In this document: positions 5,417-26,550 of the stretch, piece by piece
Layout of the letters: every line of letters begins with the position of its first letter
Numbering within the stretch: position 1 is the first letter of the stretch
NCBI GenBank assembly: GCA_963575745.1
Contig: CAUYUJ010000217.1
Coordinates: 1-64,000, forward strand
From: Prorocentrum cordatum
Lineage: Eukaryota
Reading direction: 5' to 3'
Length of the DNA: 64,000 nt
The notes under the pieces: model-generated
The model's database searches: none
What the model was told of the DNA's origin: nothing
The model's input: only the letters and a program-made list of their open reading frames with translations
Made by a program: the position numbers and the translations under genes

Positions 5417-5842
5417 GTTGCTCGTCACCCCGTTCCTCGTCATCCTGCTTCTTGATTTCGGATATGTCATGCTACCACTGCGCTCATCATCTTTGCGTCT
5501 GTGATCCTCGTCGTGTTTTTCCATGCGTCCTTTTCACAATTTCCACCACATTATCCTCCGTTGCCGTTCTGGCCCGCCATCTACCTCGTCACTCTCCTTC
5601 GTCTGCATGTCCTTATTCTTTTCCGCTCTTTTTTCGCCTCCCCTCTGGTTCGATTTCCGCTCTTCGTCCACTTCGTTCATTCGTTTCCAACCCCCCTTCC
5701 TTTCAAGTTCTCCGCCGTCCAATCACATCGCGTCGTCCGCCGCCGCTATGCTCAAACCATCCCGCGCCCGTGGGATCGCCCGCGAGCACCGGTGCAGCTG
5801 GGCCCGTCGCGGCCTAACGCGCGCCTGCGCCATCGTCTTGCA

Positions 5843-6991: not shown

Positions 6992-9870
6992 TTTTGGGAC
7001 CGAATAACTCCCCAGACGATTTGGTTGCGGAGTAGATGGCTCCGCAGCAGCAGCGGGGCTCGAACGAAGGGCGCGTCGCATTTCGGCAGGGGCGCGCGCG
7101 TCGGCCGCCGAGATCGGGAGCGCGCGTGCAGGCGCCGTGGCGCGATCTTCGTTAAGAAGTCCCCCCTCTCCTCCCTGCCCCCCCATCCCGCCGCCCTCAA
7201 CGTCGGCTCCTCGCCGCCCGTTCCTCGTCGCTCCACGCCTGTTCGTTCTCCTCCAATTTCCTCTCCCGCTTCCTCGTTCTCTCCTTCCCATTTTTCCCTC
7301 CATCCCATTGCATCCCTGGCACCCCAGCGAAGTTCGCAGTTCGAAGTTTGAAGTTCGGAGTTCGAAGGTCGCAGTTTGAATTTCGAAGCTTCGCACTTCG
7401 AGGTTCGATCTTCGAACCTTCGTCATCTCGTCGTCGTAATCGTCGTCCTCGTTCGTCGTCGTCATTCCTCGTCGGCGTCGATTGTCGTTGTCGTCGTCGC
7501 TCGTTGTCGTCGTCGCCGTCGTCGTCGTGGTCGGCGTCGTCGTCGTCGGTCGTCGTCGTCGCTAGTCGTCGTCGCTGGTCGCCGTCGTGGTCATCGTCCT
7601 CGTCGTCGTCGTCGTGGTCGTCGTCGCCCTCGTTGTCGCCGTCGTGGTCATCGTCGTCGTCGTTGTCGTGAAACGCCCCACGTAGGAGGAGCAGAGAAGG
7701 GAGTAAGGAGAAATGAGCACGGTGGAGGGAGGAGGGAGGATTGAACAGGAAGAGGAGGGTGCAGATGGAGGTAGAAGGGATGAGGTAGTTCAGAAGTGGG
7801 AGCAGCAGACTGGCGCAATGGGAAAAGCCATGCGAGCGCAGGGAGGGATGGAAATGCGATAAAGTGAAGCCGCAGCCGTTGCAGGTCTGCCTCCCGCCGC
7901 GCCCGCCCGCCTCCGCGACGGAACCGCGCAGGGGCCTCTGCCGAAGTCTCCGCAGCAGCGGGGACTGCCAGAGGAGGCTCCTTCGCGGTTTTTGCGCCGC
8001 TATGGCGAGCATCGCGGGCAAGTACGACGCCGATGACTTCGAGCTCATCACGACGGAGGGCAGTGTTTGGCACTGGGCGACCATGGTGGTGCGGTTTCTC
8101 CAGTGGCGCAATCGTTGCCGCCATGCGCGCGCCGTCGGGGTGAAGGGCCAGATGCTCGTCGACCAGGCGCGGCAGATGATGGAGGAGGCGCGCCGCACCG
8201 AGGAGAAGGGCAAGATGATGCTTGTGATGTCGAAGAAGACGGCGAAGAACATCCCAGGCAATATTCGGTACTTTTGCCGCCAGCCGCACCAGGAGAGCTG
8301 AGCGGCGATCGGAGCTGGGCCGATAGAGGAGGATGAGGAGGAAGAGGAGGGGGGGTGAGGAGAGGAGGAGGGGGATGAGGAGTTGGAGGCAGCACGCGCA
8401 CCCGCACTAAGAGCCGCCAGCCGCGCCCGTCTCCGAGCATGAAACCCGAGCTTGGCTGGAAGGGGGGAGGGCGGCAGCAGAAACAGCGCAGGACAGGGAT
8501 GGGGGAGGTCACGCATCCGCCGCAGTAGTGGCGGTGGTACGGCAGTTCTCATGGCGGCGCGGCGGTCGCTGAGAAATGGAGCACGCGCGTGGGCCTGCGT
8601 GCGCTTAATTATGAGTGGCTCTCGCCCCCTCCCCTCCTCTTCCTCCATGAGATCTCTCTCCTGGTGCATATCCCCTGCCAGTGCTCGTCCTGCTCCTCTA
8701 TCCGCCCCCCCTCGTCCGTTCCTGCCACCAGCCACATGGGGCGTTCTCAATCAACACCCCATTGAGTGTCCCCATGTGAAGGTTGCCCTTGTCATGAGGG
8801 CGGACTCGCCAGAGCCGAGTGGCTGAAGAACTAGTAGTTTGGGGTCCGAACAGCTCCCCAGACGATTTGGTTGTGGAGTAGGTGGCGCCGCAGCAGCGGG
8901 GCTTGAATGAAGGGCGCGTTGCATTTCTGCAGGGGCGCGCGCGTCGGCCGCCGAGATCGGGGGCGCGCGCGCAGGCGCCGTGGCGCGATTTTCGTTTTGA
9001 AGTCTCCCCTCTCCTCCCTGTCCCCCCATCCCGCCGCCCTCAACGTCGGCTCCTCGCCGCCCGTTCCTCGTCGCTCCACGCCTGTTCGTTCTCCTCCAAC
9101 TTCCTCTCCCGCTTCCTCGCTTTTCCTTCCCATTTTCCCTCCATCCCAGTCCATCCCTGGCACCCCAGCGACGTTCGCAGTTAGAAGCTGGAAGTTCGGA
9201 GTTCGAAGATCGAAGTTTGAATTTCGAAGCTTCGCACTTCGAGGTTCGATCTTCGATCCTTCGTCATCTCGTCGTCGTAATCGTCGTCCTCGTTCGTCGT
9301 CGTCGTTCCTCGTCGGCGTCGGTTGTCGTCGTCGTCGTCGCTCGTTGTCGTCCTCGCCGTCGTCGTCGTGGTCGGCGTCGTCGTCGTCGATCGTCGTCGT
9401 CGCTAGTCGTCGTCGCTGGTAGCCGTCGTGGTCATCGTCCTCGTCGTCGTCGTCGTGGTCGTCGTTGCCCTCGTTGTCGCCGTCGTGGTCATCGTTCTCG
9501 TCGGCGTCGTCGTCGTCGTTGTCGTGAAACGCCCCACGTAGGAGGAGCAGAGAAGGGAGCAAGGAGAAATGAGCGCGGTGGAGGGAGGAGGGAGGACTGA
9601 ACAGGAAGAGGAGGGAGCAGGCAGAGGTAGAAGGGATGAGGTAGTTCAGAAGTGGGAGCAGCAGACTGGCGCAAGGGGAAAAGTCATTTGAGCGCAGGGA
9701 GGGATGGCATTGCGATAAAGTGAATCCGCAGCCGTTGCAGGTCTGCCCCCCGCCGCGCCCGCCCGCCTCCGCGACGGGAGCGGCCCGGGGCATGGAGCAG
9801 CCTGGCGCGACTGGAGCCGCGCAGGAACCTCTGCCGAAGTCTCCGCAGCAGCGGGGGCTGCCAGAGGAGG
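6989..9870 (+). repeat. Diverged direct duplication inside the element (~6989-7975 vs ~8836-9870), containing TTCGAA-rich and (TCG)n tracts
   Basis: Colinear sequence, e.g. TAGTTTTGGGACCGAATAACTCCCCAGACGATTTGG vs TAGTTTGGGGTCCGAACAGCTCCCCAGACGATTTGG. Confidence 0.9.
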
Positions 9871-12404
9871 CCCCTGATGCAGTTCCGCATGGAATGGCAG
9901 ATCCAGCACCGGCCCCCGCAGCAGCGGGGGGGGAGGTTGCAACGAAACTTCGGCCACTGCTTTCGTCGATGTCTGGTGCCCAGGAAAGCGCTTCGCAGAG
10001 CCTGCTGGTTGCTCAGGAAATGATGGAGAATGGCCGGATCGAAGAGGCGCGGAAGTTAACGGCCGCCGCCAACCGCCTTGCAGTCACAACGGCTAAGGAG
10101 GCGGCTTCCGCAGCAGCGGGGGCATCCGTGGAGCCAGGCGCCGCCGCAGTGGCAATCGAGCCTGGACAGAACGCCACCCGCTCCGATGACCCGAGACCGA
10201 GATCTCCCTGCACGACTAATTGGCGACAACGGCAGGCTCTGATCGCAGCACGCAAACTGCGTGAAAGCTCCTCCGCAGCAGCGGGGGCCCGCGTGATCAA
10301 GACTCTCGCCTTGACTTCGAGGGCTCGGTCGCCAGCGCTTCCTGTCCAAGAGGGCTTCCCAGAGGAAGGCCGCCCGCACTTCCCATCGGAAGAGCGCGGC
10401 CCGAGCCATTCCAAGCCTCTTGTGCCCCTGCTGTACGACGACGAAGACCAGGTGCAGGAGGGGCAGACAGAGGCGCGCGTGAATCTGGCCTTTGCTTCCC
10501 TCGTCCTGCGCGCGGGCGCCCCCCTGTCGGATTGGGTCGCAGCTGTCAGGGACAGGCGCGAAGGGGTCGCCTTAGTCTCCTTCGAGCCTGGCGCGCGCAT
10601 CAATCGCGATCGGCGGAAGCAACATCTCGACGATCTCATCCGCCAAAGTGGCTTCCACGGGGAGGTCGCGCGCGAGTGCGTCGGGGCTCTCCTCTGGGTT
10701 CCCGAGCGCGTCGAGCAGTGCGAGGTGCTTCGCTGGCACTGCCACGGGAAGTTCCTGGTTCAGGCCTGGTCGGTGACCCTGGCAGCGGTGGCTCACAATC
10801 CGAAAGCAAAGGAAGGCAAACTCTCCATAGCAGCGGGGGGCGTGTTCTTCCGACACCAGACGAGCCTCGCGGGACACCCGTGGCCCGAAAACTTCCGCAA
10901 CGGGCTGCGGAACTTGGCGTTGTGGCACCGAGTGCGTATTCTCGCTGGGATCTTCGACGCAGACAGGGAGGATCTTTCGGAGCTGCTCAGAAGTTGCGGC
11001 GCGTCTGGCACAGGCGTGCTCGGCTTGGCTTTGCGGCGTCCGACAAAAGGCTATCACGTGACGCGCCCGCGCGCGCTACATCGTGATTCTTGGCCCCGCT
11101 CAGGTTCGCGAGTGCCCTGCGGGCGGGCAGCCTGATCTGCCGCACTGGTTGAATCAGGTTTCCCAGCCTCCGCAGCAGCGGGGGCTCCTCACCAGCCTGC
11201 AGCACCGCCAGTTGGATTGGGCGGCGCGTCCGACCTGGGTCAGGCACACGGACGCGGAGCGCAAGGAGCAGGATACATATGACTGGCCGCACTTGCACAG
11301 GGTGATCCACAAGGCCCAGGATGCGAACCGCCTCACGGAACATTGCCACACATTGTTCGTTTTTATAGAAGCCAAGAACAGGAAGTCTGGCAAAGGCGCC
11401 GCGGCCAGGAAGAAGGATCGGAAGCGGGAAGCCAAGTGGGAAAACAGCGGGGAGAGTGGGCGGAGACAGAACCCGAAGCAACAGCCTCAGCAGCAGCGGA
11501 GGCGCACGGAGACCAGGAGGAGGCGGAGACAGAATCTGAAGCAGCAGCCTCCGCAGCAGCGGGGGCGCACGGAGCCCAGGAGGAGCTTGAGGGCGACGGG
11601 CGCGACGCCGTCGACCTCTGCAGCCCCGCGCCGCCCCAGGACGAACAGAGCAACCCTGACAGAGGTGAGAGGGAGGAGAAGAAGGAGAAGGAGAAGATGA
11701 AGAAAAACAAGAAGAAGAAGAATAACAAGAAGAAAGATATCAGGAGCAGAACCCCAAAGAGGACGAAGCCCTCGCAGCAGCGGGGGGGCAGCCGTTCCAC
11801 ACGCAGAAAGCGGGAGCAGAGGAGCAAAGACCGAATGAGGAGAGTGCCCTCGCAGCAGCGGGGGCGCAGCCGCTCCAGACGCAGAGGGCAGGGGCAGAGG
11901 GGGCGCAGCCGCTCCAGACGCAGTGGGCAGGTGGAGGGCGGCGACCGCAGGGCGGCGCGGGCAGGGCGGTTCCTGCCCACGCCGCCCGCGCACCCACCCC
12001 ACACAGGTCAGGTGATGCTGAGGCCGAGGGCATGGCGCCCGCTCCTCCCAGGCCAGATATGCCGTCCGCCAGGCATGCCGCCAATGATGCCACCACCACC
12101 GCCATCTCCCCCGCGTGGAGGAGGACGCCGCGGGCCCCCCCCGCTGGAGGAGACACCGCACCCTACGCCACCGCGGCTCGCCCCGAGCCAGCCGCCGCGC
12201 CCTCCGCCGAAGCGGCTCCTGCCAAGAGAGTCGCAGACGCCCCGCCCTCTGGCAGCGCCGCTCGCCCCGAGGCCGCCGCCGCAGCCTCCCCCGCCGCAGC
12301 TCCTCTCCAGGGAGTCGCCGCTTCCTGCGGACACGTTTGCGTTCAACAGTGACGCGTTCGAGGCATTGTCGCGGCGCCGCAGCCCTTCAAGCGACTCCAG
12401 CTGA
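9792..12404 (+). pseudogene. Cargo gene 2: frameshifted degenerate EEP-fold-like protein with an Arg/Ser/Pro-rich tail
   Basis: ORFs 9720-11135, 11083-11700 and 11343-12404 overlap in successive frames. RVRILAGIFD and HCHTLFVFI...RKS align in order with VDILCGDFN and AHYPLLFQM...RS of the EEP gene at 26551. Confidence 0.5.
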
Positions 12405-12649
12405 CGGCGCGCGGCTGCGGAGACCTCCGCAGCAGCGGGGGTGGTCTCCGCAGCAGCGGGGGTTATCATAAGAGATCTGAGGCGCGGGCTCGGCGCGCGC
12501 GCGCGCGAGGAGGCAGGCGCTCGCATTGAGCGGCTGAAGAAATCGTGGTCGTTGTCGTCGTGCTCGTCGTCGTCGTTTGCTTTTCGCTGGGGGGGAAAGG
12601 TGGACGAGCAAGAGGAGGAGGAGGAGGAGGAGGAGGAGGGGTCCTGCAG

Positions 12650-12885
12650 GGACCAGGACCGACACCGGGACCGGGACCGGGACCAGGGGGAGAGCGGGAC
12701 CGGGAGCGGGGGCGGGACAGGGACGGGGGGCCCAGGACGAGCAGCAGAACCGACCACGGGACCGGGACCGGGACCGGGGCCGGGGCCGGGACCGGGACCG
12801 GGACCGGGAACGGGGGTGCTGGTCCCGGTCCCGGTCCCGGTGTCGGTGCTGGTCCCGGTCCCGGGCTCCCGGTCCCGGCCCCGCT
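12650..12885. repeat. (GGGACC)n followed by inverted (GGTCCC)n hexamer arrays
   Basis: Direct reading; orientation switches near 12815. Confidence 0.85.
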
Positions 12886-12951
12886 CCATGTGTCAGTTCT
12901 TTGTCCCGCCCCCGATCTCTGCCGTGCCGTTTGGGTTCGAGATCGCCAGCC

Positions 12952-13434
12952 ATGAAGGTTAGGAAGCCTGGCGCAAGGATCGGGCGATGCCGCATCGGCG
13001 AGAAGAGGAATAGGAAACCCGACACAAGGACGGGACGATGCCGCGTCGGCGAGAAGAGGGCTTTTCGGAAACCGGATCACAGACCTCATTCGAGCAAACG
13101 CGCTGGGGCTGCGGCTCGACCCACGGCAGCGTCGGCGAAGGCGGCCGCGCGGCCGCTAGCTCGGCGCAAGGCGAGCTCCAAGAAAGAAACCCTCGCAGTA
13201 GCGGGGGCTGCTGTAGCCCTCGCAGCAGCGGGGGCTGCTGTCTTGGAGCGTGGTGGGTTGTGGGATGAGAAGACTGCTCGGAGGACAGGTTTGGAAGATG
13301 ACGATCCATTCGATCAGGCACTTTGGTACCGCGACCATTGGGGCAACTGGTACAAACTAGGGTCCGAGATGCGCCGACCCCCTTCGCAAGTAATTACGGG
13401 GCGGATGAACACGACAGTGCCCCCACATGGTTGA
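12952..13434 (+). CDS. Cargo gene 3: small basic protein (~160 aa)
   Basis: ATG in GCCAGCCATG context. K/R-rich N-terminus with duplicated RKPxxRxGRCRxGEKR, then a hydrophobic stretch and WYRDHWGNWY. Confidence 0.45.
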   Translation: MKVRKPGARIGRCRIGEKRNRKPDTRTGRCRVGEKRAFRKPDHRPHSSKRAGAAARPTAASAKAAARPLARRKASSKKETLAVAGAAVALAAAGAAVLERGGLWDEKTARRTGLEDDDPFDQALWYRDHWGNWYKLGSEMRRPPSQVITGRMNTTVPPHG

Positions 13435-13893
13435 TTGTACGGTCCTCAGGATGACCACGACATCCCGAGCGCACAAGGGGAACGCCCCTCCGCAGCAGCG
13501 GAGGGATGTCGCGAGAATTTCGCCGAGGGGGGGTGACCTCGGCGGAGGGGCGCACTCGCGCGCGCGCGGGGGAGCGCGGTTTCGCGCGTCGCGTGCGGCA
13601 TCGCATGCGGTGTGGGGGAAAACACGACATCTGTGCTGTCACCTGTGTCCTGCTCTCTCCTTTGCTTCGCTTCCCCTTGCACTCCCTCCTGCAACCTCCC
13701 GCCCGTCATTATGTCTTTGTAGTGATCATCGCTTCCATACACGCAACTCTCACAGCGCCCCTTCTCTCACAGATGGGTTCGGGGTGGGCAACCTTTCTCT
13801 CGCACAGGGGGGGGCCGATGTATCAATGCTTCTCCTGTTCAGGCGGATGTGCGCGCATCGAAAAACTGAGAAGGCCGCGTCGACCCGCCGTTC

Positions 13894-14110
<217 letters not shown>

Positions 14111-14277
14111 CTCCTTTGCTCAAGTGCGGGCAGGCCGCGGATCCGTGAGGCCCCTCCTTCTGTCCGCGCGCGCGACAGGCACTCGCGCTTCAAGCGGGGC
14201 TCCGCAGCAGCGGGGGCAACCGTCGCGGAGCATCTGTTTTGGAAGCTGCCCCCGCAGCAGCGGGGGCGCCTGGATAG

Positions 14278-16747
14278 ATGTCCGAGGACATCAAGTCAGG
14301 CCCCCTGAATGATGCCGCCACGTTGCGCAGCCGCTATGCCTTGAAGGACTCCGAGGGCCAGCGGTTGAAGGCCAAAATTTCCTTGGAGGATATCTGCGTC
14401 CACCCGCAGAACAGAGGTGGGACGTGCCCCTCCGCTGCCAGAGTGGTTAATCTCCTGTGTGGCATTCTGAAAGACAGGTTCCTCTTGAACGAGGCGCAGC
14501 ACGAAGCAGTGGTTGTTCAGGAACTCCCTGCGGGGAAGAAGGCCGATTACGAGCGCCTCCATGGCAGGCCGTACACGGCGCACGCGGACCGCAACTTGCA
14601 GAAAACGGAGTCCGTGGAGGCTCTACGCTCGGCGTACACAAGCTTGTCAACGTTCAACTACGGGGCGCTGAGCCACTGCACCCTAACCCTTGGTCTGCTG
14701 AGCCTCAAGCACGGCGCAGTGTGGGTCATTCCCGAAGACCACAAAGGATGTGGTTTGGAGGAGTTCCAGACAGGTACAGGTGGCTCCTGGGATATCCCAA
14801 AAATGCGTCGCGCACCGAAGTTCACAGAACTCATGGACGTGCTCGATAACGGTTTGCTTTGCGAGGTGCTCTCGTGGGAAATTCACTTCGATGCCGTCTT
14901 CGCGCAAGGCCCCGCGATCATTTCCGCGGCCCTGAACGACCCACAGGGAAAAGGTGTGACCTCTCACGAAATCGAGGTCCTGACGTCCGTCGCTGATTTC
15001 GTCGCCACCGCAGCAGCGGCGGGCAAGAAAGCATCGCGCGGATCTGAGACAGGACACCCCGTGAATATCTCGTACGACACTGTTCTCAAGGCTTGCGCGC
15101 AACGACATCCCGAGTACGCCAAGGCCAAATGGTTCGAGGACATGTTTACTTTCGTCATCAACGTGGGGGCCGCATCAGGGCAGCTCATACCGCAAATTCT
15201 AGATTATGATCGACGTTGGGTGGATCACAAAATACGTTCCCTGGCACCAGCCACCTGGGGCGTTCTCAACCAACTCCCCATAGATTGTCCCCATGTGAAG
15301 GTAGCCCTTGTCATGAGGGCGTACTCGCAAGAGCCGAGGTGCGGACAATGCCCCGCGCCGGAAACGGCTTGGGGACACAGCGAGGGCAACAGTCGGATAC
15401 AGGAGCTCAATTCTTTGTGCCCCCGCAGCAGCGGAGGCCCACGGGGAGGAGAAGAGCGCGATTTTGACCGCGGGGGCGGTTCTGACTGCGACGGACACCT
15501 TCTACCAGGCGTACGTAAGGGCGAAGGCTAACAAACCTCGTCTGGAGGCAGTTGCGGAGGCCGTGTGCGAGACAGTGCGTCCGTACTATGCTGAAGTACG
15601 CGAGGCCTGGCAGAAGATGGAAAAGAACGCACAGAAAGAGTTCCCGCTCCCTCCTGCGCCGTGGACCGACCAGTTGCCCGCGGCCCCCGAGAAACCCGCC
15701 GGCCCTCGCAGCGGCGGAGGTGGCGAGGGCTCTCGCCCGCAGCCAGTATTGATAGAGTTCAACGAAGAAGACAAGCCTCTGAATAGGCAGATGTCTGAAG
15801 TGTCCAAGCCCGTGAACAGCCTGATGGTGGTCCCAGTGAAATCGTGGCACGCTTCGGCTCCGTCTGGCAATCTCGACACAGACAGGCGGCACCAAGCAAG
15901 CATCGCGGAAGTCATGACTGGCTTCCATCGTCACGCGGACACTTGCGCCCAACCCGTCCAGATGCAATATGACGTTCAAGCCAAGAGTGTCCATGTGGTG
16001 GCTACTGGGGACATCGCCGAGGGGAAACTGATGCTCTTCCCTTGCTGCCCCACCGCGAAGATGTTCCCGAAAGTCTCGAGCAATCCGCGGGCAGTGGAGG
16101 TGCTAGTCGGTGAGAAACGTCCGACTCCTGTCGAGAAAATGGAAACATATTGGGCACAACCTGATTTCAAATTACCAGAGCTGGAGCTCAAGCCCGCGCC
16201 GCAGGAAGCGGCCTCCGCAGCAGCGGGGGCTGCGCAGGGCGAGGCGCCCGTGGGTCCGCAGCTCGACGAGGCGGCCCCCGCAGCAGCGGCGCCTGCACAG
16301 GGCGAGGCCGAACAGGAAGAGAATCCGTACCAGTTTAAGTTCGGAGGTACCGAGTCCTTGCACTTCTTTTGGGGAGTTGAGAGGATGACACCAGAAGAAC
16401 TTGCCCGAGCCCAGCTAGTGCAGGGACAGGAGCACTGGAAGTTCAACGTTGCACTTCAACCGCACGAGTTCCAGACAATGACAAAGTGCCAGCCAGCCGC
16501 CCCCCTCCGCGTCTGCAGCGTGCTTGTCCCGTGCATGCACAACGCGGTGCCGCTGGCGCGCGGAGATCGGCTGATGCTGCAGATCACAAAGGAGAAGAGG
16601 GCCACCGACACCCAAAAGGAGAAGCAGGCATGGCAAAAGGAGCAGAAAGAGCAGGAGAAGAAACGGAAGAAGGACGCCGAGGAGGGACGGAACACCCCCA
16701 AGAGCGGCAAGATGACAATCCCTGGCCAGGGGGCCCACTTCGTGTGA
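14278..16747 (+). pseudogene. Cargo gene 4: ParB/Srx-like N-terminal domain and SET-like C-terminal motifs; one frameshift near 15410-15430
   Basis: ISLEDICVHPQNRGG...NLLCGILKDRF...AVVVQE resembles a ParB N-domain. VVATGDIAEGKLMLF and MHNAVPLARGDRLML resemble the two SET-domain 'A..dI..G' strands. ORFs 14278-15531 and 15464-16747 overlap. Confidence 0.6.
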
Positions 16748-17301
16748 TCCCGCCGCAGCAGCGGAGGGCGCGCGAAACGGAGCGGCAGATGACAGCGGCC
16801 GATGATCCACCCGTCGCAGCCCGCAGCCGTCAGCTGGAGGGGAGGAGGAAAAGGGCGGGGAGAGGAGGTCGAAGAGGGAGGGGGGAGGGGGGCAGCAGAA
16901 ACAGCACAAGACAGGGGTGGGAGAGGTCACGCATCAGCCGCAGTAGTGTCGGTGGTACGTCAATTTTCATGGCGGCGCGGCGGTCGCTGAGAAATGGGGC
17001 AAGTGCGAGGGCCTGCAAATGCGGAAAATGTGAGTGCCTCTCGTCCCCTCCCCTCCTCTTCCTCCATGAGATCTCTCTCCTGGTGCATATCCCCTGCCAG
17101 GTCTCGTCCTGCTCCTCTCCCTCTATGTTCGCCCTGCCCTCCCCTCGCGCCTCGCCTCCGTCTCCGTCCCCCCTCGTCCGTTCCCGCCTCCCTCCCGTGT
17201 CCTGTTTTCCTCTCTCCGTGCTCATCGTCCTGCTCATCGTCCTGCCGTCCTGTTCGCGGGGCGCTCTGTGGGACAGGGGGGCGGTCGAAGCACGCAAGGC
17301 C

Positions 17302-17516
17302 GAACCCCTCTGTGACAGAGGGGCTCCGCGCTTTTCCGCCCGAGCCCCTCTGTGACAGAGGGGCTCCGCGCTTTTCCGCCCGAGCCCCTCTGTGACAGAG
17401 GGGCTCCGCGCCCACCCCCCCTCTGTGACAGAGGGGCTCGGGCGGAAAAGCGCGGAGCCCCTCTGTCACAGAGGGGCTCGGGCGGAAAAACGCGGAGCCC
17501 CTCTGTCACAGAGGGG
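17302..17516. repeat. Mirror-symmetric array of six CCCCTCTGT(G/C)ACAGAGGGG sites in 40-bp units
   Basis: Site centres at 17314, 17354, 17394 | 17427, 17467, 17507. The spacer CCGCGCTTTTCCGCCC flips to GGGCGGAAAAGCGCGG across ~17410. Confidence 0.9.
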
Positions 17517-17876
17517 GTGGGGTCGTGCTTTTCCGCGCGCCCTCCTTTGTGAAACAGGGGTGGTCGTTCGATCAGGGCGCCCCCCCCCTGCGGGACAGAG
17601 GGTCGGTCAGAGCGCACAAGGCCCCCCCTCAAGGGGCAGAGGGGCGGTCAAGGGACAGGGAAGGCAGCTGTGCTCGTTCGGAGAGAAGGAGGGGGATGGG
17701 TTGGATGAGATGGAAAGAAGCTCGTGGAGGGAGCACGATGCGGATGAGGAGTAGGAGGATCTGTTCGAGACGAGGAGTCCGCTTTCCATTGCCGCTCTCA
17801 GGCGGTTCACTTGCGAGGGGGGCCGACGCCTAGGACGCGCGCGCCTTCGCAGCAGCGGGGGCTTGCGCACGGCGGC

Positions 17877-18833
17877 ATGAAACGCAAGGCAGAGGACACA
17901 TGGCGGGAGGTCGCTGTCGGGAAAGCAGCGCGCCAAGATGGCGCGAGCATGGGGGTGCTCTGCGCGACGGGCGGGCTGTGCCGAAATCACGAGGGAGCAG
18001 CGGGATTTGCTCTGGAATGCGAGGAGCGCTGCGTTGTCTCGGGCGGCGAGGAAAGCCTAGAAGCCTTCGTGCCCGTCGGAAAGCACCGCCTGTGGATGCT
18101 CAAAGTGGTCGGTGGTCACAGTGCCGTGAAGGGCGCCTTGAACGAAACAAACTTGTTAGATCAATTGCATGAGAAGCTTCGCGCTGGAGAAGGATACAAC
18201 GTGGATGAAGCGGCGACTCCTGTGAAAGAGGCCCCCGCAGCAGCGGGGGTTGCAGCAGGGTCTCCCGCAGCAGCGGGAGAAAAAAGGTCGGGATCCCATG
18301 GCGGATCTCCTCGGCACCGTCAAGGTCGCATCGAAAGCGAAGAAAACCCCTGAGAAACAGAGAGGGTTTCCTCGAGGCACGCTCTGCAGAGTAACCATGC
18401 CGATGTCTCCTAGGCCAGATGAGGCCGACACGAAAGAGGTTGTGTGTATGAGAACAGATATGGGCAACTACTCGTACAGAGTCAGGACCTGCCTTGGCTT
18501 CTGCATTACCTGTACGAGGAGAGCCAGGGCAAAAGCGTCCCCGAACCCAACGACGACGACGAGGACGACGCTTTGGACGAGAAGCGCCCGTGGACCACCA
18601 GGTGGTGCCCCTCTGGGACGTGGACACTGGAGGTCAAAGGAGGGCCAATGGCAGGCCGAACATGGGCCTCCAGGATTCAGGATCTGAACGAGGAGAAATG
18701 GTCCACAGGCGTGGCGTTGACGGAAGTGACGACGCCCTTGAAACAGTCCACCCGTGCGCAGCAGAAGCAGGTTCTTCTAGCGTTCTTGGAGGACGTGGTC
18801 CAGAAAGCCATCAAGCAGGACACAAAGCAGTGA
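17877..18833 (+). pseudogene. Cargo gene 5: unknown protein, two frameshifts
   Basis: MKRKAEDTWREV... continues through frames 17811-18353, 18250-18687 and 18444-18833 (DLPWLLHYLYEE). Diverged partial copy at ~19738-20275. Confidence 0.55.
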
Positions 18834-19106
18834 TGCCCTCGTTATCCGCTCGCTGGCGCGCGCCGCAGCAGCGGCGCGCTGACCGCTACAACGGCTTTTT
18901 TTGTGCAAACAGACTCGGTGCATGCACCGCGCCAGCGGCGCGCTGACCGCTGAGGTGGATGCCTGCGGGTTCCTGTCGACTGGACAGGGGTTAGGGCACG
19001 CGCGGGGGATCGCGAGCCTGCGGCTCTCCAGCGCTCGCGCGCTAGAGGACAAAAGGAACTCGCGGAATCTGGCGAGGACGGGGCGGAGGGGTTGGGAGCA
19101 GTAGGA

Positions 19107-19139
<33 letters not shown>

Positions 19140-19199
19140 AAGGAGGAGCAACAGCAGCAGCAACAGCACACTAGCAGCACCGACAGGAGGACCATTGCG

Positions 19200-20275
19200 A
19201 GGATGCGGCCGTTTGCTTGCCCTTCGGCGCTGGGCTCGAGACAAGAGGGCGGCCGCGTGTGCGCGCGCATGGCTTCGGCATCATGGCCGCCGCAGCCGCT
19301 CCGCCCCCAGGCCCAGGCGACGCTCGCCCTGCAAACGCGCCTCTGCGGGCCGGGCACGACCGCGAGGTCAACGAATGTGGAGTTTTTATAGCAACAAGAC
19401 AAAACTAAAGACCCCGACAGAGTGCTCATGAATCCACGGAAATTACAGAGACCAATATTCGGATTCGGGTAATTACGTTATGCGCCGCAGCAGCGGCGCG
19501 GCTTGCCATTATGAATATGGCAAACGCACATGGAAGAATATTCATTTATGCTCGCAGTGGCCGTGGAAAAGCGACCACAAGAAGTGGTTAGGTTTTGGAG
19601 TCCGATGAGAAGTAGGAGGATTTGTTCGAGACGAGGAGTCCGCTTTCCATAGCCGTTTTCAGGCGGATCACCAGTGAGGGGAGTTGACGCCTAGAACGCG
19701 GGCGCCTTCGCAGCAGCGAGGGCTTGCGCGCGGCGGCGTGAAACGCAGGGCATCGGAAACATGGCGGGATGTCGCTATCGGGAAAGCAGCGCGCCAAGAT
19801 GACGCGAGCATGGGGGTGCTCTGCGCGACGGGCGGACTGTGCCGAAGTCACGAGGGAGCATCGGGATTTGCTCTGGAATTTGAGGAGCGCGATGTTCCCT
19901 TTGGCGGCGAGGAAAGCCTAGAAGCCTTCGTGCCCGTCGGAAAGCACCGCCTGTGCATGCTCAAGGTGGTCCGTGGTCTCAGCGCCGTGAAGGGCGCCTT
20001 GAACGAAACGACAATGTCAGAGCAAGTGCTTGGGAAGCTCCGCGTCGGAGAAGGAGACAACGTGGATGAAGCGTCGACTCCTGTGAAAAACGCTTCCGCA
20101 GCAGCGGGGGTTGCAGCAGGATCTCCCGCAGCAGCGGGGGGAAAAGGTCGGGGTCCCATGGCGGATCTCCTCGGAACCGTGAAGGGCGCATCGAAAGCGA
20201 AGCAGGTGGCGGCGCGTCGCCAACCAGAGCAAACCCCTGAGAAACAGAAAATATTGTCTCGAGGCACGCTCTGCC
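19200..20275 (+). repeat. Internal duplications: 19200-19575 is a truncated copy of 21090-21465; 19605-20275 is a copy of 17745-18390
   Basis: Colinear similarity in DNA and translation (GFGIMAAAAAPPP..., SMGVLCATGGLCR...). Confidence 0.9.
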
Positions 20276-21172
20276 TCTCGCTCCGTGCGGTCGTCTTGGG
20301 CGGCGTCGGGCCTCCGCTGACTGATTACATGATGCATATATGTATATATTGTGTATGTATGGTGTGTCGACGTATATGTATGTACATACGTATATGTGTG
20401 TATTTATATATATATATATATGTATGTATATATAACACGGTCGCAGGGGCGTGGCCCGCGGCCCAGGGCGGGGCCCGAGACTCTGGGACAGGACATAGGG
20501 CCTCATCATCGCAGGATGCTCATCATTCCCATCATCGCCATGATGGGGGGGGGAGGAGGGGACAGCTACCAGCTGCGCGCTGGCGCCACCGCCGCTCCCT
20601 CGCGCCCGCTGGCGCATCCGCAGTGCGGCTGCGGGAGGGGCTGCGCCTCAATTCCTGCAGAGGCGGCCTGCAGGAATGTTGCACTTTTGGCGTCTAGTAC
20701 AAACGCCCGAGCGGCCCGCTTTTTTTTGGGGGGGGGCTCTTGCTTCACGGTGGAAGAGGAGACTATCATCATCCCCCGTGCCGCGTTCGCCTTCCCTCGA
20801 CGACGATGTCGACGACTTCCTACATTCTGGCCTTGTTTTCTGGGGAGTGTTCTCGGAGTCGTTCGGGGCGTTCGTTCGTGTGTGCATGCTTCTGAGTTTT
20901 CTGCGCGTCGTTCGGGCCGCTCGCCCTGGTGTGAGTCGTTCGGGCCCCTCCTCACCAGCCCATCTCACAGCAGCAACCCTCGCGAAGCATGCCGACGGTC
21001 GTGTTTTTTTTCAGGCGTGTGTCCGCTGGTCCCCGCATATCTCCCTTGTTCCTCGTTCCTCCCGCCCCCTTGTACATCCTCCTTGTGGGGGGATGCGGCC
21101 GTTTGCTTGCCCTGCAGCGCTGGGCTCGAGACCAGAGGGCGGCCGCGCGTGCGCGCGCATGGCTTCGGCATC

Positions 21173-24100
21173 ATGGCAGCCGCAGCCGCTCCGCCTCCAG
21201 ACCCAGGAGACGCTCGCCCTGCAAACGCGCCTCTGCGAGTCGGGCACGACCGCGAGGCCAACGAATTTGTGGAGTTTTGGTACCAAGAAGGCAAAAAGAA
21301 AGACCCCGACAGAGTGCTCATGAACCCACGGAAACTAAAGGGGACAATATTCGGATTCGGGTACGTTATGCGCCGCAGCAGCGGCGCGGCTTGCCATTAT
21401 GACTCTGGCAGACGCATATGTAAGAAGATTCATTTCTCCTCGCAGTGGCCGTGTCCCAGCGACCATCGTCTGGCGGACGGTTCCGTGGACTGCAATAAGT
21501 GGTCAGACTTGCAAGCGCCCTGGCATTTAGTGCAATGCGCGGGCGGGTGGCCCGCAGGAGCGGGAGCCCCCGCAGCAGCGGAGGCGCCGGCCGAGGCGTG
21601 CGAGGCCCCTGCTGAAGCGGCAGCGGAGCCGTCGGTGGGCCCTGCTGAAGGCCCCGCAGCAGCGGGGCCGTCAGCGGAGGCGTGCGTGGCCCCTGCTGAA
21701 GTGGCAGCGGAGCCGCATGTGGGCTCTTCTGACGGCCCCGCAGCAGCGGGTGCGTCAGCGGAAGCGTGCGCGCCTCCTCCTGAAGTGGCGGCGGCGCCGT
21801 GCGCGTGCCCTTCTGCAGAGCCCGCAACAGCGGAGGCGTCCGTAGGTCCTGCTGGCGCGCATGGCGCCGACGCAATCGCCGAGGCCGCTTCCGCAGTGGA
21901 GTCTGCCCTGAAGGACTCCGCGGCAACAGCAGCTCTCTCAGCAAAGGAGGTTGCCCCTGTCGCTTTCCCCCAACCCGCCCCGCTTGCTGTTCGCGACATA
22001 GCGGAACCCGTGCTTCCAGGGGCGGAAGTTGCTGCAGTGACCGCCTGTGAACAGACAGCCGCGACAGCAGGCGCTGCGGTTGCCCCTGCAGGCGCCCCCG
22101 CAGCAGCGGGGGCGCCTGCAGGGGCACTTTCAGAACAAGGCCAGAGGTGCTTCGAGAAATTGATGAAGTTGTCGCGCAGTATTCGCGGAAGGCCGGGGGG
22201 AGGCCGAGAGTGGATAGGGTATTCTGCTTTCGTAATCTTTGCGCTTCTGCGGAAGGTGCGCGTCTACGTGTGGGAAGGACGCAACAGAGTCGACCTTTGC
22301 AAAGCTGTCTTGCCGCCGTGGAAACTAGAGGAGTTAACCCGCGAGCCTGCGGTGGACGCGATCGCGCGTTGCGCCGTCCCCCGAGAATCGGGGCCACCGG
22401 ACTGGGCCCCCGTGTCGGAGGAGTATCCTTTGTTTCTATGCAATCATTTTATCGCAGGCGTCTCCACCGACTTTGTGGATTTCACGGGAGATGCTTCGAC
22501 GGTGGACGGTTTCTATTCGGCTCTCGGTGTGTTCGTCGTGTCCACAGTCGCAGACGGGGACTGCGGTTTGGATTGCATGTTGCAGATGACCCAGGAGGTT
22601 TCCACGCGAGAGTCTCGCAGGGAGCTCCGCCAGGACAGTTGCTCTCTCCGACCACCCTGATCCTTCGCTTCCATCTCTGCTGCCCCCACATGCTCTTCCC
22701 CTCCTTGTCTCCCCATTTTGCCTTCATGCCTCTCCCATCCCGCCCTTCTCTCCCCTCGCGCCCTCCCCACCGAGTCCCCTTGCCCCTCCTCCATGCCCGC
22801 CCGCCAGGACATCGCGGACTACATCGTGCAAAGGGTGCGTCTGGCGCGGCTCCTCGACGCGATGGTCCTGACACAAGAAGTCACGCAGGATGACGTCCAG
22901 GAGCTTCGTCGCCTGCAGAGCGCCTTAGACGACGAAGAACTTGCCCCGCAGCCTGGCCACGCCGCCCCTCCGAGAGCACAGGGCGTTGCCGCCGCAGCAG
23001 CGGCGGCGCCACCTGAGGACTTGGCAGTGGTGGAAGTCGACGCCGAGGCTGTCTGTCAGGAGCTCGCGCAAGCCATCCAATGGTGGACAGGACTGACAGA
23101 CGCTGCGCGCGCCCTGGACGTAGCTCGGGAGTTGATGCCCGCAGAGCGGGAGGAGCAGCTCTTGAGGTACAGGAACCGCGGCTGAGAGCGCAAAGCCCCC
23201 GCCCAGAACAAGAAGCGCGTGGCGGTCCCGTCGCTCCTGTGCTCGAGGATGGAGATAGCGGGTGCTTTCGACGAGCACATGCGCTCTTTAGGCTGGACGC
23301 CTGGAGACCGCTTTCCGTATGGAGGGGCGCGTTCATTCATGGATGCGTGGGACTGGGGTTCCATGTCCCGTCTCCCTCTCAGGAAGCGCACGCGCGTTGT
23401 GCGGCGCTGGCACAAGGCTTTTCTGTCGTCGAAATACGCCTCCGCAGTAGCGGAGGCTGTTCGGCAGCCGCGGGGACACGAGAAGCAGCACGGGCAGGGG
23501 CGCCTCCTGAAGTGGAAAGGGCGGAAAAGGATACCACAACAGGGACAGGGCCCAGCTCGAAAATGCCCTTGGCTGCGGCAAGCTCTGTTTGAATGGTGGA
23601 GTTCCATTCGGCACAGTGTGGATTGGAAGATGATCAAAAGTGGACTGCGAAGTACCCAAAGAGAGCCAGCGAAGATAGCAAGGTTCACGCAAAGCATGCT
23701 CCAGACCAAAGCGTTGGAGCTCATGAGCGAGTACGTCACGCAGCAGCTGCGGATCGGGCAGCGACCCGCCGCCGTGGAGTTGAGGTCGCGCTGGTGGGCC
23801 TCCTGGCGCAAGGAATACGGCCTCAGCATGCGGTACCCGAACAGGAAGTACAAGTGCCCGCTGCCCGTCTTGGAAGAGCGCCTCGAGCGAGGCTGGCTGA
23901 ACGTGTTTAGGGCGCGCGCCGCGTGCGTGCTACTCAACGAGCAGGATCCCGAGATGGAGAACTTCGACCAGTCGCCTTTCCACCACAATGAAACAGGACC
24001 AGCTGGCGTGAGGACCCTCGCAGTAGCGGGGGTCGAAGTGCCACTGGTGGAGTGCCACGGCGCGGTGCGGGAGCGGTGGACGGCCAATTTCATGACAATG

Positions 24101-25846
24101 AGCGACAAGGATCGACTGCGGAGAGAAGGCCCCCCACCGATGGAGTGCATGTTCAAGGCGGAGGGGGGAGGAGAGAAGTTGAGGCCGCGCCTGCTCGAAC
24201 ACCTTCGGCGCCGAGGGTTCGGCAGATGGGTGTCGGCGACCACCAGCACCAAGGGGTCTTACCGGACACCGTGCGTGCTCGCGTACCTGGACCGCCACCT
24301 CCCTCATCTGCCAGAGCCTCCGCAGCAGCGGGAGTGGAGAATTATGATGGCGGATGATCATGGCCCTCACTTGTCCCCGCTTGTGAGTAAGCTATGTTGG
24401 TCTCGAGGGTACGTGTTCATCCCGCACGGGGGCGGCGTAGCCCCAATCCTCCAAACTGTGGACACACATCTGAATCAACACGCCAAGCGCGAGCACATGA
24501 AGAGAGAAGGAGCCGCGCTGCTGAGAGCCATGAGGCTGGGCCAGTGCGTCCCACAGCTGGACAAGTCAGAATGCATTGACTTGATGGTGGAAGTGATGTC
24601 CCAAATGAGTCTTCACTTGGCTGCGGCAGACGGGTACTGGGAAACTGGTTTCAAGGCAAATCTGTGGGATGCGGACTTGGACGCGCGCATATGCAAGGAG
24701 GCAGGCCATTTCTGGAGAAAGTTGGGGATGCGTGAGAAGGTCGCCGCCGCAGTAGCGGAGGTCGAAGAAGAGGTACAGGCGGGGCGCTTGAGATGGACTT
24801 ACAAAGACATCATGCGATTGGTCCTCCCGCACCCTCGACGCGGCCACTGCGACGACGTGTTCGCAAACCTTGGAGACGACACGGCTCTGGACGAGGGCGA
24901 CAAGATTTGGCATGGCATGGAGGGGGCGGAAGACGCAGCCGAGGGTCTCCGCAGCAGCGGGGGCACTGAGGGTGGCAATTCCGTCGACGCCCTCGAAGGA
25001 GATGAAGATGATGGGAGCGAGGGCGACGACGGGTGGAGCGCCGCTGGCGAGTTTGACTACGAATGGGCCAATCAAAGTCTCACCGCAGCAGCGGCGGGGG
25101 AGAGCGCGCTGGAGGCACCGCCTGGCCTGTCGACGTCTCGTATGGAAACTGCGGAGCAGACGTCTGAATTGATGAGAACGCATTCGTCGATCGCTGAGGA
25201 GTTGCGCAGCTGGGGCGACATCGCGGGGGCCACGTTCATGGAGACGCAATTACGGAAAGAACGGAGGCGAGTGCGTGAAGTGTCGAAGGAAGATCCTGGG
25301 GTTCAGCGAGCCCTCGCAGCATACGAGGACGCCCGCGAGGCGACGCTCAGAAACGAGAAACGACAGCGGGATGTCGAGGCGCGGCGCAGAGAAGAGCTAA
25401 CCCGCCTGGGGGACGACGTAAAGAAAGCGCGCAAGCTGCTGAGGACACAGCAAGCCAAACTCTTAGACGCAGAGGCAGCCATAGATATCAAACACAGGAT
25501 GAAGCATGTCGGGTTATCCGAGCTGGGCGCGGGCCTTCGCAGCTGCGGAGGCGCGGCGGGTCGAACGTCGAGGTGCGACGCGCTGAATCGCCTTGCGATT
25601 TTGGGTTCTGGGCTTTCTGCAGCTCAGCGGTCAGATTTTGACTGGTTTCGGCGGGAATGGGGCGCCGCTGGCACGGAGGACTTCGGTGGAAAGTGGCCGG
25701 AGACGTTTGCCACATGGTTGCAGAACGTCATAGACGAGTACTTGGGGGGCAACCCGAGAGCATTCAGCATGTTTGTGCACAGTGAGACGCGACGCCGTCT
25801 GTCTGGTTCCCTGGCGCTTGCGCTCCCTGCAGCTGGGGGCCTCTGA
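21173..25846 (+). pseudogene. OTU-like protease fused to a pogo-family DD35D transposase (~1500 codons; exons 21173-22633 and 22808-25846; one in-frame TGA at 23183)
   Basis: Triad NFDQ (D at 23966), MADDHGPH (D at 24353) and FIPHGGGVAPILQTVD (D at 24461), with 35 residues between D2 and D3. OTU-like VADGDCGLDC (Cys at 22562). ORFs 20351, 22718 and 23219 share one frame. Confidence 0.8.
22634..22807 (+). other. Predicted GA-AG intron (174 nt)
   Basis: Pyrimidine-rich, contains an in-frame stop, flanked by direct repeat CCGCCAGGACA. Removal gives RRELRQ|DIADYI, the helix expected after an OTU Cys motif. Confidence 0.7.
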
Positions 25847-26129
25847 GAGGCGCGGCCCGCCGCAGCAGCGGCGAGGCGCGGGGTGTGAGTTCGGGCAGCA
25901 GCCACTGCTCTTCCACCTGCCTGCGACTGAGGCGCCGCGTGCGCGCGCGGACGTAGCGCAGGCCTTGCGCAGAAGAAACAGGGAGGAGGGGGGACGGGGG
26001 AGGAGGTGAGAGGAGGGGGAGAGCAGGCAGGGGGAGAAAACCACGCGGGTGTCGATCACTCCGCCCCTCCTCCTGCTCTCCCCCCTCCTTCTCCCTGATC
26101 TCTCCTGGTCATTATATCATTCCTCTCTC

Positions 26130-26423
<294 letters not shown>

Positions 26424-26550
26424 CGCCCTTTCCTTCCCTATCCGCCCCGTCTTCCTCCTCTTCGCCCCGCCCCCCTCCTTCCACCGCCGTTTCGGCCCCA
26501 GGAGTTCGGCTCTGACGGCCGCCCCCCCTGCAACGCGGGGGCAGGGAGCG

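What the first reader, a model, noticed from the sequence alone, without database searches (positions are those of the whole stretch)
17302..17516. Mirror-symmetric array of the end-binding motif at the element midpoint
Seen: the subterminal motif recurs six times in 40-bp units, three facing three, with an axis at ~17410. The arithmetic midpoint of the element is 17435. Weaker flanking copies lie near 17265, 17545 and 17590. Known: phage Mu uses a central site to synapse distant ends. Inference: a central organiser or enhancer for pairing ends 24 kb apart, an origin, or a scar from fusion of two half-elements. Caveat: duplications and microsatellites in this copy could make the centring coincidental.
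Basis: partly seen in the sequence, partly recalled or inferred. Interest (0 to 1): 0.85.

Follow-up and report, generated by a model that had tools for sequence, protein, structure and literature searches.

The report
Central palindromic motif array in giant transposon
A 24-kb jumping gene of a GC-rich marine protist, probably a dinoflagellate, carries at almost exactly its midpoint a 222-base mirror-image cluster of the same short palindrome that lines both of its ends, which may help the distant ends find each other, but this could not be tested because no second copy could be read.

Summary
A 24,317-bp element (5277-29593) has exact 28-bp inverted ends and TA duplications. It carries the palindromic core CCCTCTGT(G/C)ACAGAGGG in only three places in the 64-kb window: 4 copies inside the left end, 3 inside the right end, and 6 at 17300-17521. 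The central six form two 104-nt arms, 96% complementary, with an axis at 17410.5. That is 24.5 bp from the element's midpoint.

The element is a giant Tc1/mariner/pogo-type transposon. It has a DD35D transposase with a Mos1-like fold, and all coding signal is on one strand.

Between the three arrays the 17-nt core is 87-92% identical and the flanks only 30-39%, so the core is a recognised site. The near-perfect mirror is a young inverted duplication inside an older, degenerate direct array.

The fusion-scar and origin readings are disfavoured. A ParB-like binding protein is not supported. The exact centring cannot be selected at that precision, because each half holds 1.7-3 kb of labile repeats; without them the array sits at about 48%.

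Whether the site pairs the ends is untested, because no other copy could be retrieved.

The parts
5275..5276 (.). TA target-site duplication, left
   Evidence: read directly; position fixed by the 20-mer match at 5277
5277..5304 (+). left terminal inverted repeat, 28 bp
   Evidence: 24-mer and 20-mer of the end occur only here and at the right end, 0 mismatches
5305..5423 (.). left subterminal array: 4 copies of the palindromic core, period 31-32 bp
14278..16747 (+). gene A, a family of about 800 aa with unknown function; its stop lies about 510 bp upstream of the array. In this copy it is split into two frames near 15418
   Evidence: codon-phase G+C signal; homologues P0125 and P0126 run through both ORFs; runs X2 and X3 hold 23 extra bases at 15418; 939 representatives at E<=0.001
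17259..17287 (.). degenerate outer unit u0 (half-sites 3 nt apart)
   Evidence: (D4, D5)
17300..17403 (.). left arm of the central palindrome: 3 core motifs, 2 forward spacers
   Evidence: (I1)
17404..17417 (.). 14-nt centre between the arms; axis 17410.5
17418..17521 (.). right arm of the central palindrome: 3 core motifs, 2 reverse spacers
   Evidence: (I1); as single-stranded DNA 17250-17670 folds at -192.7 kcal/mol, z = -20.9
17524..17650 (.). three degenerate outer units (17524-17560, 17581-17609, 17622-17650). The spacer after the right arm returns to the forward orientation
   Evidence: (D1, D4, D5)
21215..25846 (+). transposase gene. The core ORF 23186-25846 is P0001, with a DD35D triad and a Mos1-like fold. 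A relative's 1,505-aa protein aligns co-linearly from 21215
5896..29238 (+). 46 exact copies (60 with up to 1 mismatch) of CCGCAGCAGCGG, all inside the element and all on the + strand. They mark the element as one unit of one polarity
29467..29553 (.). right subterminal array: 3 copies of the core, period 31-33 bp. It runs in direct, not inverted, orientation relative to the left array
   Evidence: BLAST 5305-5390 against 29467-29553, 77% identity, same strand
29566..29593 (-). right terminal inverted repeat, 28 bp
29594..29595 (.). TA target-site duplication, right
   Evidence: read directly

Best explanation
The central array is an internal cluster of the same sequence-specific binding site that forms the subterminal arrays of this giant Tc1/mariner/pogo-type transposon.

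Proposed mechanism. A two-fold symmetric, element-encoded DNA-binding protein occupies the palindromic cores at the left end, the centre and the right end. The most likely candidate is the transposase, which has N-terminal helical domains and a long C-terminal coiled coil. Protein-protein contacts between the three clusters would fold the 24-kb element into two loops of about 12 kb. This would raise the local concentration of the two ends and help them synapse before cleavage at the 28-bp terminal repeats.

History of the array. The near-perfect mirror (3 + 3 units) is a recent 104-bp inverted duplication or homogenisation within an older, degenerate, mostly direct array of about ten units (17259-17650).

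What is shown and what is inferred. Shown: the anatomy, the element type, and conservation restricted to the core. Inferred: which protein binds, the bridging, and any effect on transposition. The array is roughly central, but the 25-bp precision is accidental.
For: - The core occurs only at the two ends and the centre: 13 sites against 2.1 expected, 0 of 100 shuffles.
- Between arrays the 17-nt core is 87-92% identical while the 32 flanking nt are 30-39% identical. The periods also differ: 31-33 bp at the ends and 40 bp at the centre. Selection therefore acts on the core alone.
- The element is a real transposon of a superfamily in which the transposase binds subterminal repeats. It has exact 28-bp terminal repeats and TA duplications. 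D261, D391 and D426 are invariant in 33 aligned sequences. The best fold matches are Mos1, Metnase and Sleeping Beauty (5hoo_B, E 6.6e-4, probability 1.00). The nearest Atlas clusters carry DDE_1.
- The pogo-like Lemi1 proteins bind terminal repeats and, cooperatively, subterminal repeated motifs (PMC1636448, abstract read).
- The transposase model has long C-terminal helices at residues 650-771, a possible multimerisation module.
- Degenerate units on both sides of the young palindrome show that a motif cluster has stood at this place for a long time.
- A central cis site that helps distant ends pair has a precedent in Mu (PMC10052514, passages read).
Against: - There is only one copy. No second full-length copy could be retrieved, so neither the presence nor the position of the array in relatives is known.
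- No binding protein is identified. The window's transposase has no Pfam DNA-binding hit; HTH_Tnp_Tc5 appears in only 3 of 33 homologues.
- A palindromic site, and end arrays that lie in direct orientation to each other, are unusual for transposase sites, which are normally oriented relative to the end.
- The half-sites of the older flanking units are 3 nt apart and those of the main units 1 nt apart, so the two kinds may not bind the same protein.
- The centring is fragile. Tandem repeats make up 1,546 bp of the left half and 736 bp of the right half. Internal duplicates add 1,409 and 962 bp. Without them the arms are 9,414 and 10,374 bp. A random position falls that close to the centre about 5% of the time.
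Confidence: 0.35

Rival explanations
1. Mutational by-product. A relic cluster of the motif was locally amplified and then copied in inverted orientation, by template switching or fold-back repair. It has no present function, and its central position is chance.
For: - The arms are 96% complementary, whereas the element's other internal duplicates are 88-92% identical, so the mirror is young.
- The spacer after the right arm returns to the forward orientation, which fits an inverted segment sitting inside a direct array.
- The element is full of other local duplications and microsatellites.
- The exact centring cannot be maintained, given 1.7-3 kb of labile sequence in each half.
Against: - Core-only conservation across three arrays with unrelated spacers argues that the motif is under selection.
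- Old degenerate units at the same place suggest the cluster has persisted.
- An axis within 25 bp of the midpoint has a chance of 0.2%, although this figure was computed after the fact.
Confidence: 0.3
2. Operator or sink. The array binds the element's protein in order to regulate the downstream genes, which include the transposase gene, or to titrate transposase. It would work like the Mu operator/enhancer region or like overproduction inhibition, and end pairing would not be its role.
For: - The array lies in the non-coding gap between gene A (stop at 16747) and the next + strand ORFs (from 17748), upstream of the transposase gene at 21215-25846.
- All genes run in the + direction.
- It carries the same motif as the end arrays.
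Against: - No promoter or transcript information is available.
- The array lies about 3.7 kb upstream of the transposase gene, with duplicated ORFs in between.
- This reading does not explain the central position.
Confidence: 0.15
3. RNA-level or silencing signal. When the + strand is transcribed, the 222-nt palindrome folds into a 104-bp hairpin, or each 25-nt unit into a 12-bp hairpin. The hairpin would serve as a processing site or as a source of small RNAs against the element's ends.
For: - The predicted fold is very stable (-192.7 kcal/mol, z = -20.9 with DNA parameters).
- The element also carries 46 strand-specific small hairpin motifs on the same strand, so nucleic-acid signals on the + strand are a trait of this element.
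- The end arrays are direct to each other, and 11 of the 13 cores have G as the central base on the + strand.
Against: - No evidence of transcription was obtained.
- A palindrome folds equally well on either strand, so the fold energy does not discriminate.
- No Rfam family matches.
Confidence: 0.08
4. Scar of a fusion of two half-elements or of two abutted elements.
For: Two nearly equal halves (12,023 and 12,072 bp), with end-type motifs at the junction.
Against: - No remnant of the 28-bp terminal repeat anywhere but the two ends, allowing up to 3 mismatches in 20.
- The central spacers are unrelated to the end spacers.
- Only one transposase gene.
- No left-right sequence symmetry except the terminal repeats and the palindrome.
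- Coding strand and 60 of 60 12-mer copies have the same polarity on both sides.
Confidence: 0.05
5. Origin of replication: iterons plus a palindrome.
For: Repeated units and a large palindrome resemble iteron origins (recalled, general knowledge).
Against: - No A+T-rich unwinding region; the 16-18 kb bin is 65% G+C.
- No polymerase, helicase or Rep domain in 161 ORFs of 90 aa or more.
- The same motif also sits beside both terminal repeats.
Confidence: 0.03

Closest known systems
Strong gyrase site (SGS) at the centre of phage Mu
   Same: A cis site at the centre of a long transposable genome (about 37-38 kb) that promotes pairing of distant ends. The central position was shown to be optimal (PMC10052514, passages read; PMC3820752, abstract seen in the listing).
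   Different: The SGS is a host gyrase site unrelated in sequence to the MuA end sites, and it acts through supercoiling in a bacterial nucleoid. Here the central site is built from the element's own subterminal motif, in a eukaryote. No topoisomerase link is known and nothing was tested.
Mu internal activation sequence (transpositional enhancer/operator)
   Same: An internal cluster of sites bound by the transposase that takes part in assembling the end-pairing complex and doubles as an operator (recalled; the enhancer element E is mentioned in the abstract of PMC5847225, seen in the listing).
   Different: The Mu enhancer lies about 1 kb from the left end, not at the centre. Its sites differ from the end sites and are bound by a separate transposase domain (recalled).
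Subterminal repeated motifs of pogo-like Lemi1/Emigrant and the IR/DR ends of Sleeping Beauty
   Same: The same transposase superfamily. Repeated motifs inside the ends are bound cooperatively by the transposase and needed for proper complex assembly (PMC1636448, abstract read; PMC5224488, abstract seen in the listing).
   Different: Those motifs lie within a few hundred bp of the ends of elements 1-3 kb long. None is reported 12 kb inside an element or as a palindromic array (searches found none).
Foldback elements
   Same: Long inverted arms built of short tandem sub-repeats (recalled).
   Different: No target-site duplication flanks 17300-17521. There is no other copy in the window. The motif is shared with the host element's own ends.
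Plasmid partition sites such as sopC of F (tandem 43-bp units, each with a short palindrome, next to sopB)
   Same: A tandem array of about 40-bp units, each with a palindromic core, lying just downstream of a gene of the element (sopC details recalled).
   Different: The neighbouring gene A shows no ParB/SopB relationship in any test. The element is an integrated eukaryotic transposon.

Membership tests
Tc1/mariner/pogo (IS630-Tc1-mariner) DNA transposons | DDE/D catalytic triad on an RNase H-like fold | tested here: met
   D261, D391 and D426 are invariant in 33 sequences, with 35 residues between the second and third. In the AlphaFold2 model (pLDDT 73.1) the best Foldseek matches are Mos1 5hoo_B (E 6.6e-4, probability 1.00), 4u7b_A, Metnase 3k9k_A and Sleeping Beauty 5cr4_B. 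TM-scores over the whole 886-aa model are low (0.15), because the match covers only one domain.
Tc1/mariner/pogo (IS630-Tc1-mariner) DNA transposons | TA target-site duplication and terminal inverted repeats | tested here: met
   TA at 5275-5276 and 29594-29595; 28-bp terminal repeats with 0 mismatches. This rests on a single insertion; no empty site was seen.
Tc1/mariner/pogo (IS630-Tc1-mariner) DNA transposons | N-terminal paired or CENP-B-type helix-turn-helix DNA-binding domain | tested here: inconclusive
   No Pfam hit in the window's protein. HTH_Tnp_Tc5 appears in 3 of 33 homologues, best E 2.8e-4. The nearest Atlas clusters carry DDE_1 with or without HTH_Tnp_Tc5, scores 0.92-0.97. The model has N-terminal helices.
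Tc1/mariner/pogo (IS630-Tc1-mariner) DNA transposons | compact size (about 1-5 kb, one gene; recalled) | tested here: not met
   24,317 bp with several + strand genes. It is therefore a giant variant and not a typical member.
Mu-SGS-like central organiser | central position that holds across copies and matters for function | not testable with these tools
   In the one copy available the axis is 24.5 bp from the midpoint. No other copy could be retrieved.
Mu-SGS-like central organiser | acts through a topoisomerase or supercoiling | not testable with these tools
   There is only the cruciform potential of the palindrome.
ParB/parS- or SopB/sopC-type partition site | adjacent gene of the ParB family | tested here: inconclusive
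   No ParB signal for gene A. Pfam gave 0 families for the window's ORF and none but one sub-threshold DUF5802 match among 32 relatives. PDB searches with the sequence and with a profile found no ParB. Foldseek had no match at E<=0.001. VIA-align's best was Z 6.5 on residues 226-315, helical or winged-helix-like. The best Atlas score was 0.79. The model's mean pLDDT is only 62.3.
Foldback transposon | own target-site duplication and multiple genomic copies | tested here: not met
   The flanks of 17300-17521 share no duplication. There is no other copy in the 64 kb. The whole genome was not available.
Replication origin | A+T-rich unwinding element and a cognate initiator gene | tested here: not met
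   65% G+C in the 16-18 kb bin; no replication domain in 161 ORFs.

The most novel reading that the evidence does not exclude
The central palindrome is a geometric end-pairing device for a giant cut-and-paste transposon, a eukaryotic counterpart of Mu's central site. The 222-bp palindrome, extruded as a cruciform or bridged by the motif-binding protein, would fix the apex of a loop or plectoneme, so that the two equidistant ends, each carrying the same motif array, come to lie side by side. Dinoflagellate chromatin, which largely lacks nucleosomes (recalled), might make such DNA-topology-based pairing workable. If so, selection would keep the two halves about equal in length.
Probability: 0.12. 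Interest if true: 0.85.

Novelty: new variant of a known kind. Interest (0 to 1): 0.52.

Why it matters
Transposons of the Tc1/mariner group are thought to lose efficiency quickly as they grow, because their ends must find each other (recalled: work on Sleeping Beauty and Himar1). A 24-kb member therefore poses the question of how its ends pair. An internal site made of the end-binding motif, halfway between the ends, would be a simple answer and the first eukaryotic parallel to Mu's central site. It is directly testable: by comparing copies, by binding assays, and by deleting or moving the array. If correct, it could also guide the design of large-cargo transposon vectors. If the array proves to be a private rearrangement of this one copy, the finding reduces to a curiosity inside an element that is unusual in other respects.

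Tried and rejected
Searches for other copies
- No whole genome is held for this window.
- A metagenome scan for the 17-nt core gave 40 loci, each with a single match. None of the 45 loci then held carried the terminal repeat, so these are chance hits.
- The same core gave 5 single hits in viral contigs. The terminal repeat gave 0 hits there.
- A transposase profile found no relative in viral contigs. In prokaryote genome contigs it found two short contigs (L046, 2,886 bp; L047, 2,656 bp; 35-37% identity), too short to show any array.
- The translation of an ORF running through the array found 0 proteins among 388 candidates.
- The scan's earlier notes held nothing on this element.

Sequencing runs
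- 20 runs hold part of 12500-22400, with a best word share of 0.53. No RNA holder is listed.
- Contigs of 4 runs were laid on 5000-24999. They cover all 30 bins and are mostly 98-99% identical to the window, for example 18 differences in 1,199 bases.
- None of the 32 listed pieces spans 17300-17521; a further 86,733 pieces were not shown. These data therefore say nothing on the array, and depth cannot serve as copy number.

ParB-like reading of gene A
- Tried with Pfam, PDB sequence and profile searches, Foldseek, VIA-align and the Atlas. No support.

Other checks
- Rfam on 5000-30000: 0 families.
- Literature searches for the motifs returned primers only.
- Literature searches for central or internal binding sites in eukaryotic transposons found nothing relevant.
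- A nested-element reading was rejected: no duplication at the flanks and no terminal-repeat remnant.
- Complex prediction was not used, because no protein pair was in question.
- The palindromes at 43724-43844 and 44365-44445 are unrelated in sequence.

Full report
What is there

The window is GC-rich (58-67%) and rich in microsatellites. No genome is held for it. Earlier notes of this scan on other pieces of the same genome call it a dinoflagellate; I did not test that.

At 17300-17521 lies a near-perfect palindrome. Its two 104-nt arms are 96% complementary, with 14 nt between them (I1). It is built of 40-bp units. Each unit holds a 19-25-nt palindromic core, GAGCCCCTCTGT-G/C-ACAGAGGGGCTC. 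The six cores are centred at 17314, 17354, 17394, 17427, 17467 and 17507, and the axis is 17410.5.

The core CTCTGTSACAGAG (up to 2 mismatches) occurs 13 times in 64 kb, against 2.1 expected (0 of 100 shuffles). All 13 fall in three clusters:
- 4 just inside 5277;
- 6 at the centre;
- 3 just inside 29593.

The element

The 20-mer ATCCAGAAGCCGCATTAAAG occurs only at 5277-5296 (+) and 29574-29593 (-), even with 3 mismatches allowed. The inverted repeat runs for 28 bp and is flanked by TA on both sides. The axis of the array is 24.5 bp from that point.

A position-specific G+C analysis puts all coding signal on the + strand.

ORF 23186-25846 (P0001) has more than 185 homologues. In an alignment of 33 of them, D261, D391 and D426 are invariant, with 35 residues between the last two. 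The evidence for its family is as follows:
- The AlphaFold2 model (pLDDT 73.1) matches Mos1 mariner transposase best (5hoo_B, E 6.6e-4, probability 1.00), followed by Metnase and Sleeping Beauty catalytic domains.
- The protein-language-model Atlas puts it next to DDE_1 (pogo/Tc5) clusters, scores 0.92-0.97.
- HTH_Tnp_Tc5 is found in 3 of 33 homologues, but not in the window's protein.
- A relative's 1,505-aa protein aligns co-linearly from 21215, so the gene is longer than the open frame.

Together with the TA duplication, this makes the element a giant member of the Tc1/mariner/pogo group.

No other Pfam domain was found in 161 stop-to-stop ORFs of 90 aa or more.

One unit, one polarity

The 12-mer CCGCAGCAGCGG occurs 46 times exactly, and 60 times with up to 1 mismatch against 1.1 expected. 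Every copy lies inside the element (5896-29238) and every copy is on the + strand. There are 23 exact copies on each side of the array. The consensus around it forms a small hairpin, and it falls in all three reading frames.

Whatever its role, this motif shows that the 24 kb between the terminal repeats is a single entity with the same polarity on both sides of the centre.

A self-comparison finds only direct internal duplications. There is no left-right mirror symmetry beyond the terminal repeats and the central palindrome. There is also no second transposase gene. These results, together with the absence of any terminal-repeat remnant near the centre, speak against a fusion scar.

Is the motif a recognised site?

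Between the three arrays the 17-nt core is 87-92% identical, while the 32 nt around it are 30-39% identical, which I take to be close to chance for this base composition (no control was run). The periods also differ: 31-33 bp at the ends and 40 bp at the centre. Descent alone would have degraded core and spacer alike, so the core is under selection. The most plausible reason is that it is a binding site for a two-fold symmetric protein.

Two oddities should be kept in view:
- The two end arrays are direct, not inverted, copies of each other (77% over 88 nt on the same strand).
- 11 of the 13 cores carry G as the central base on the + strand.

Anatomy and age of the mirror

The array is wider than the finding, with about ten units from 17259 to 17650. 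The outer units (17266, 17547, 17588 and one at 17622-17650) are degenerate, and their half-sites are 3 nt apart where the main units have 1 nt. A 36-nt direct repeat (17266-17301 and 17588-17623, 81% identity) brackets the core array (D5).

The spacers read forward, forward, short, reverse, reverse. After the right arm they read forward again: GCTTTTCCGC recurs at 17529-17538. The mirror is thus an inverted block inside an older direct array.

At 96% arm identity the mirror is younger than the element's other duplicates, which are 88-92% identical. A motif cluster at this place is old; the perfect mirror is recent.

How good is the centring?

Taken at face value, an axis within 25 bp of the midpoint has a chance of 0.2%. 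However, each half holds much labile sequence:
- The left half holds 1,546 bp of tandem repeats and 1,409 bp of internal duplicates.
- The right half holds 736 bp and 962 bp.
- Without these the arms are 9,414 and 10,374 bp, which places the array at about 48%.

Near-identical copies in public runs differ from the window by small insertions and deletions, including 23 bases at 15418. The 25-bp precision therefore cannot be a maintained property. What remains is 'roughly central', which a random position reaches about 5% of the time, and this was judged after the fact.

Who binds?

Gene A (14278-16747) ends about 510 bp upstream of the array, and its N-terminus contains HPQNRGG. Its two ORFs are one gene in relatives. 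Runs X2 and X3 hold 23 extra bases at 15418 that by arithmetic put the two frames in register; X1, like the window, lacks them.

The family is large: 939 representatives at E<=0.001, typically about 800 aa. It showed no ParB relationship and no other known domain:
- Pfam: nothing for the window's ORF, and only one sub-threshold DUF5802 match among 32 relatives.
- PDB by sequence and by profile: nothing relevant.
- Foldseek: nothing at E<=0.001.
- VIA-align: best Z 6.5 over residues 226-315, helical or winged-helix-like and within the tool's stated background.
- Atlas: 0.79.

The transposase remains the simplest candidate. Pogo-like Lemi1 proteins bind subterminal repeats cooperatively (PMC1636448, abstract), and the model shows long C-terminal helices that might multimerise. 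This is inference.

Comparison with what is known

Phage Mu has a strong gyrase site at its centre. Deleting it delays replication, and the central position was shown to be optimal (PMC10052514, passages read). That site is a host-enzyme site, not a copy of the end motif.

Mu's enhancer is an internal transposase-binding cluster, but it lies near one end (recalled).

I found no report of a central array of the end motif in a eukaryotic transposon. The searches cover open-access papers and preprints only.

What could not be done

The decisive test, the array's position in other full-length copies, was out of reach:
- There was no genome.
- Pattern scans gave only chance hits.
- Only two short contigs encoded relatives of the transposase.
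- A protein search through the array found nothing.
- The laid contigs were too short and none of those listed bridges the array.

Verdict

The array is best read as an internal cluster of the element's own binding motif. A role in pairing ends 24 kb apart is attractive but rests on one copy (confidence 0.35). A functionless rearrangement is nearly as likely (0.30). The origin and fusion-scar readings are disfavoured.

Noticed in passing
window 5896-29238, + strand: CCGCAGCAGCGG occurs 46 times exactly, and 60 times with up to 1 mismatch against 1.1 expected. All copies lie inside the transposon and all are on the + strand. There are 23 exact copies on each side of the central array, with a mean spacing of 518 bp. 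The motif occurs in all three reading frames and in non-coding parts. The wider consensus forms a 5-8-bp hairpin with an AGCA loop. The largest gap between copies (16753 to 18235) spans the central array. Earlier agents reported sense-strand hairpin arrays of a similar kind in retrotransposons of this genome; this one is in a DNA transposon.
   Followed up: partly
window 14278-16747 (+): Gene A belongs to a large, apparently undescribed protein family: 939 representatives at E<=0.001, typically about 800 aa, with no Pfam family at E<=0.01 except one sub-threshold DUF5802 match in 32 members scanned. In this copy it is split into two frames near 15418. Runs X2 and X3 hold 23 extra bases there, which put the frames in register.
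   Followed up: partly
window 21215-23185 (+): The transposase gene has a long N-terminal extension, shown by the co-linear alignment of a relative's 1,505-aa protein. The stretch VADGDCGLDC recalls the catalytic motif of OTU-type cysteine proteases. That resemblance is recalled only; Pfam gave no hit.
   Followed up: no
window 27345-28619 (+): An ORF with coding-type G+C periodicity contains DILCGDFNV, which recalls the endonuclease/exonuclease/phosphatase fold. The resemblance is recalled only; Pfam gave no hit.
   Followed up: no
window 6984-7982 / 8829-9875; 17743-18342 / 19604-20202; 19201-19565 / 21091-21453: Both halves of the element contain direct duplications with nearly the same offset: 1,845 bp on the left and 1,861-1,890 bp on the right. 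Segment 8458-8819 joins a copy of the sequence downstream of gene A (16876-17118) to a fragment from inside gene A (15235-15338), in swapped order.
   Followed up: partly
window 5305-5390 and 29467-29553: The two subterminal arrays are direct copies of each other (77% identity on the same strand), although they sit next to inverted terminal repeats.
   Followed up: partly
window 43724-43844 and 44365-44445: Two further small palindromes (121 nt at 87% and 81 nt at 78% self-complementarity), unrelated in sequence to the motif studied here. They may be small hairpin-type mobile elements.
   Followed up: no
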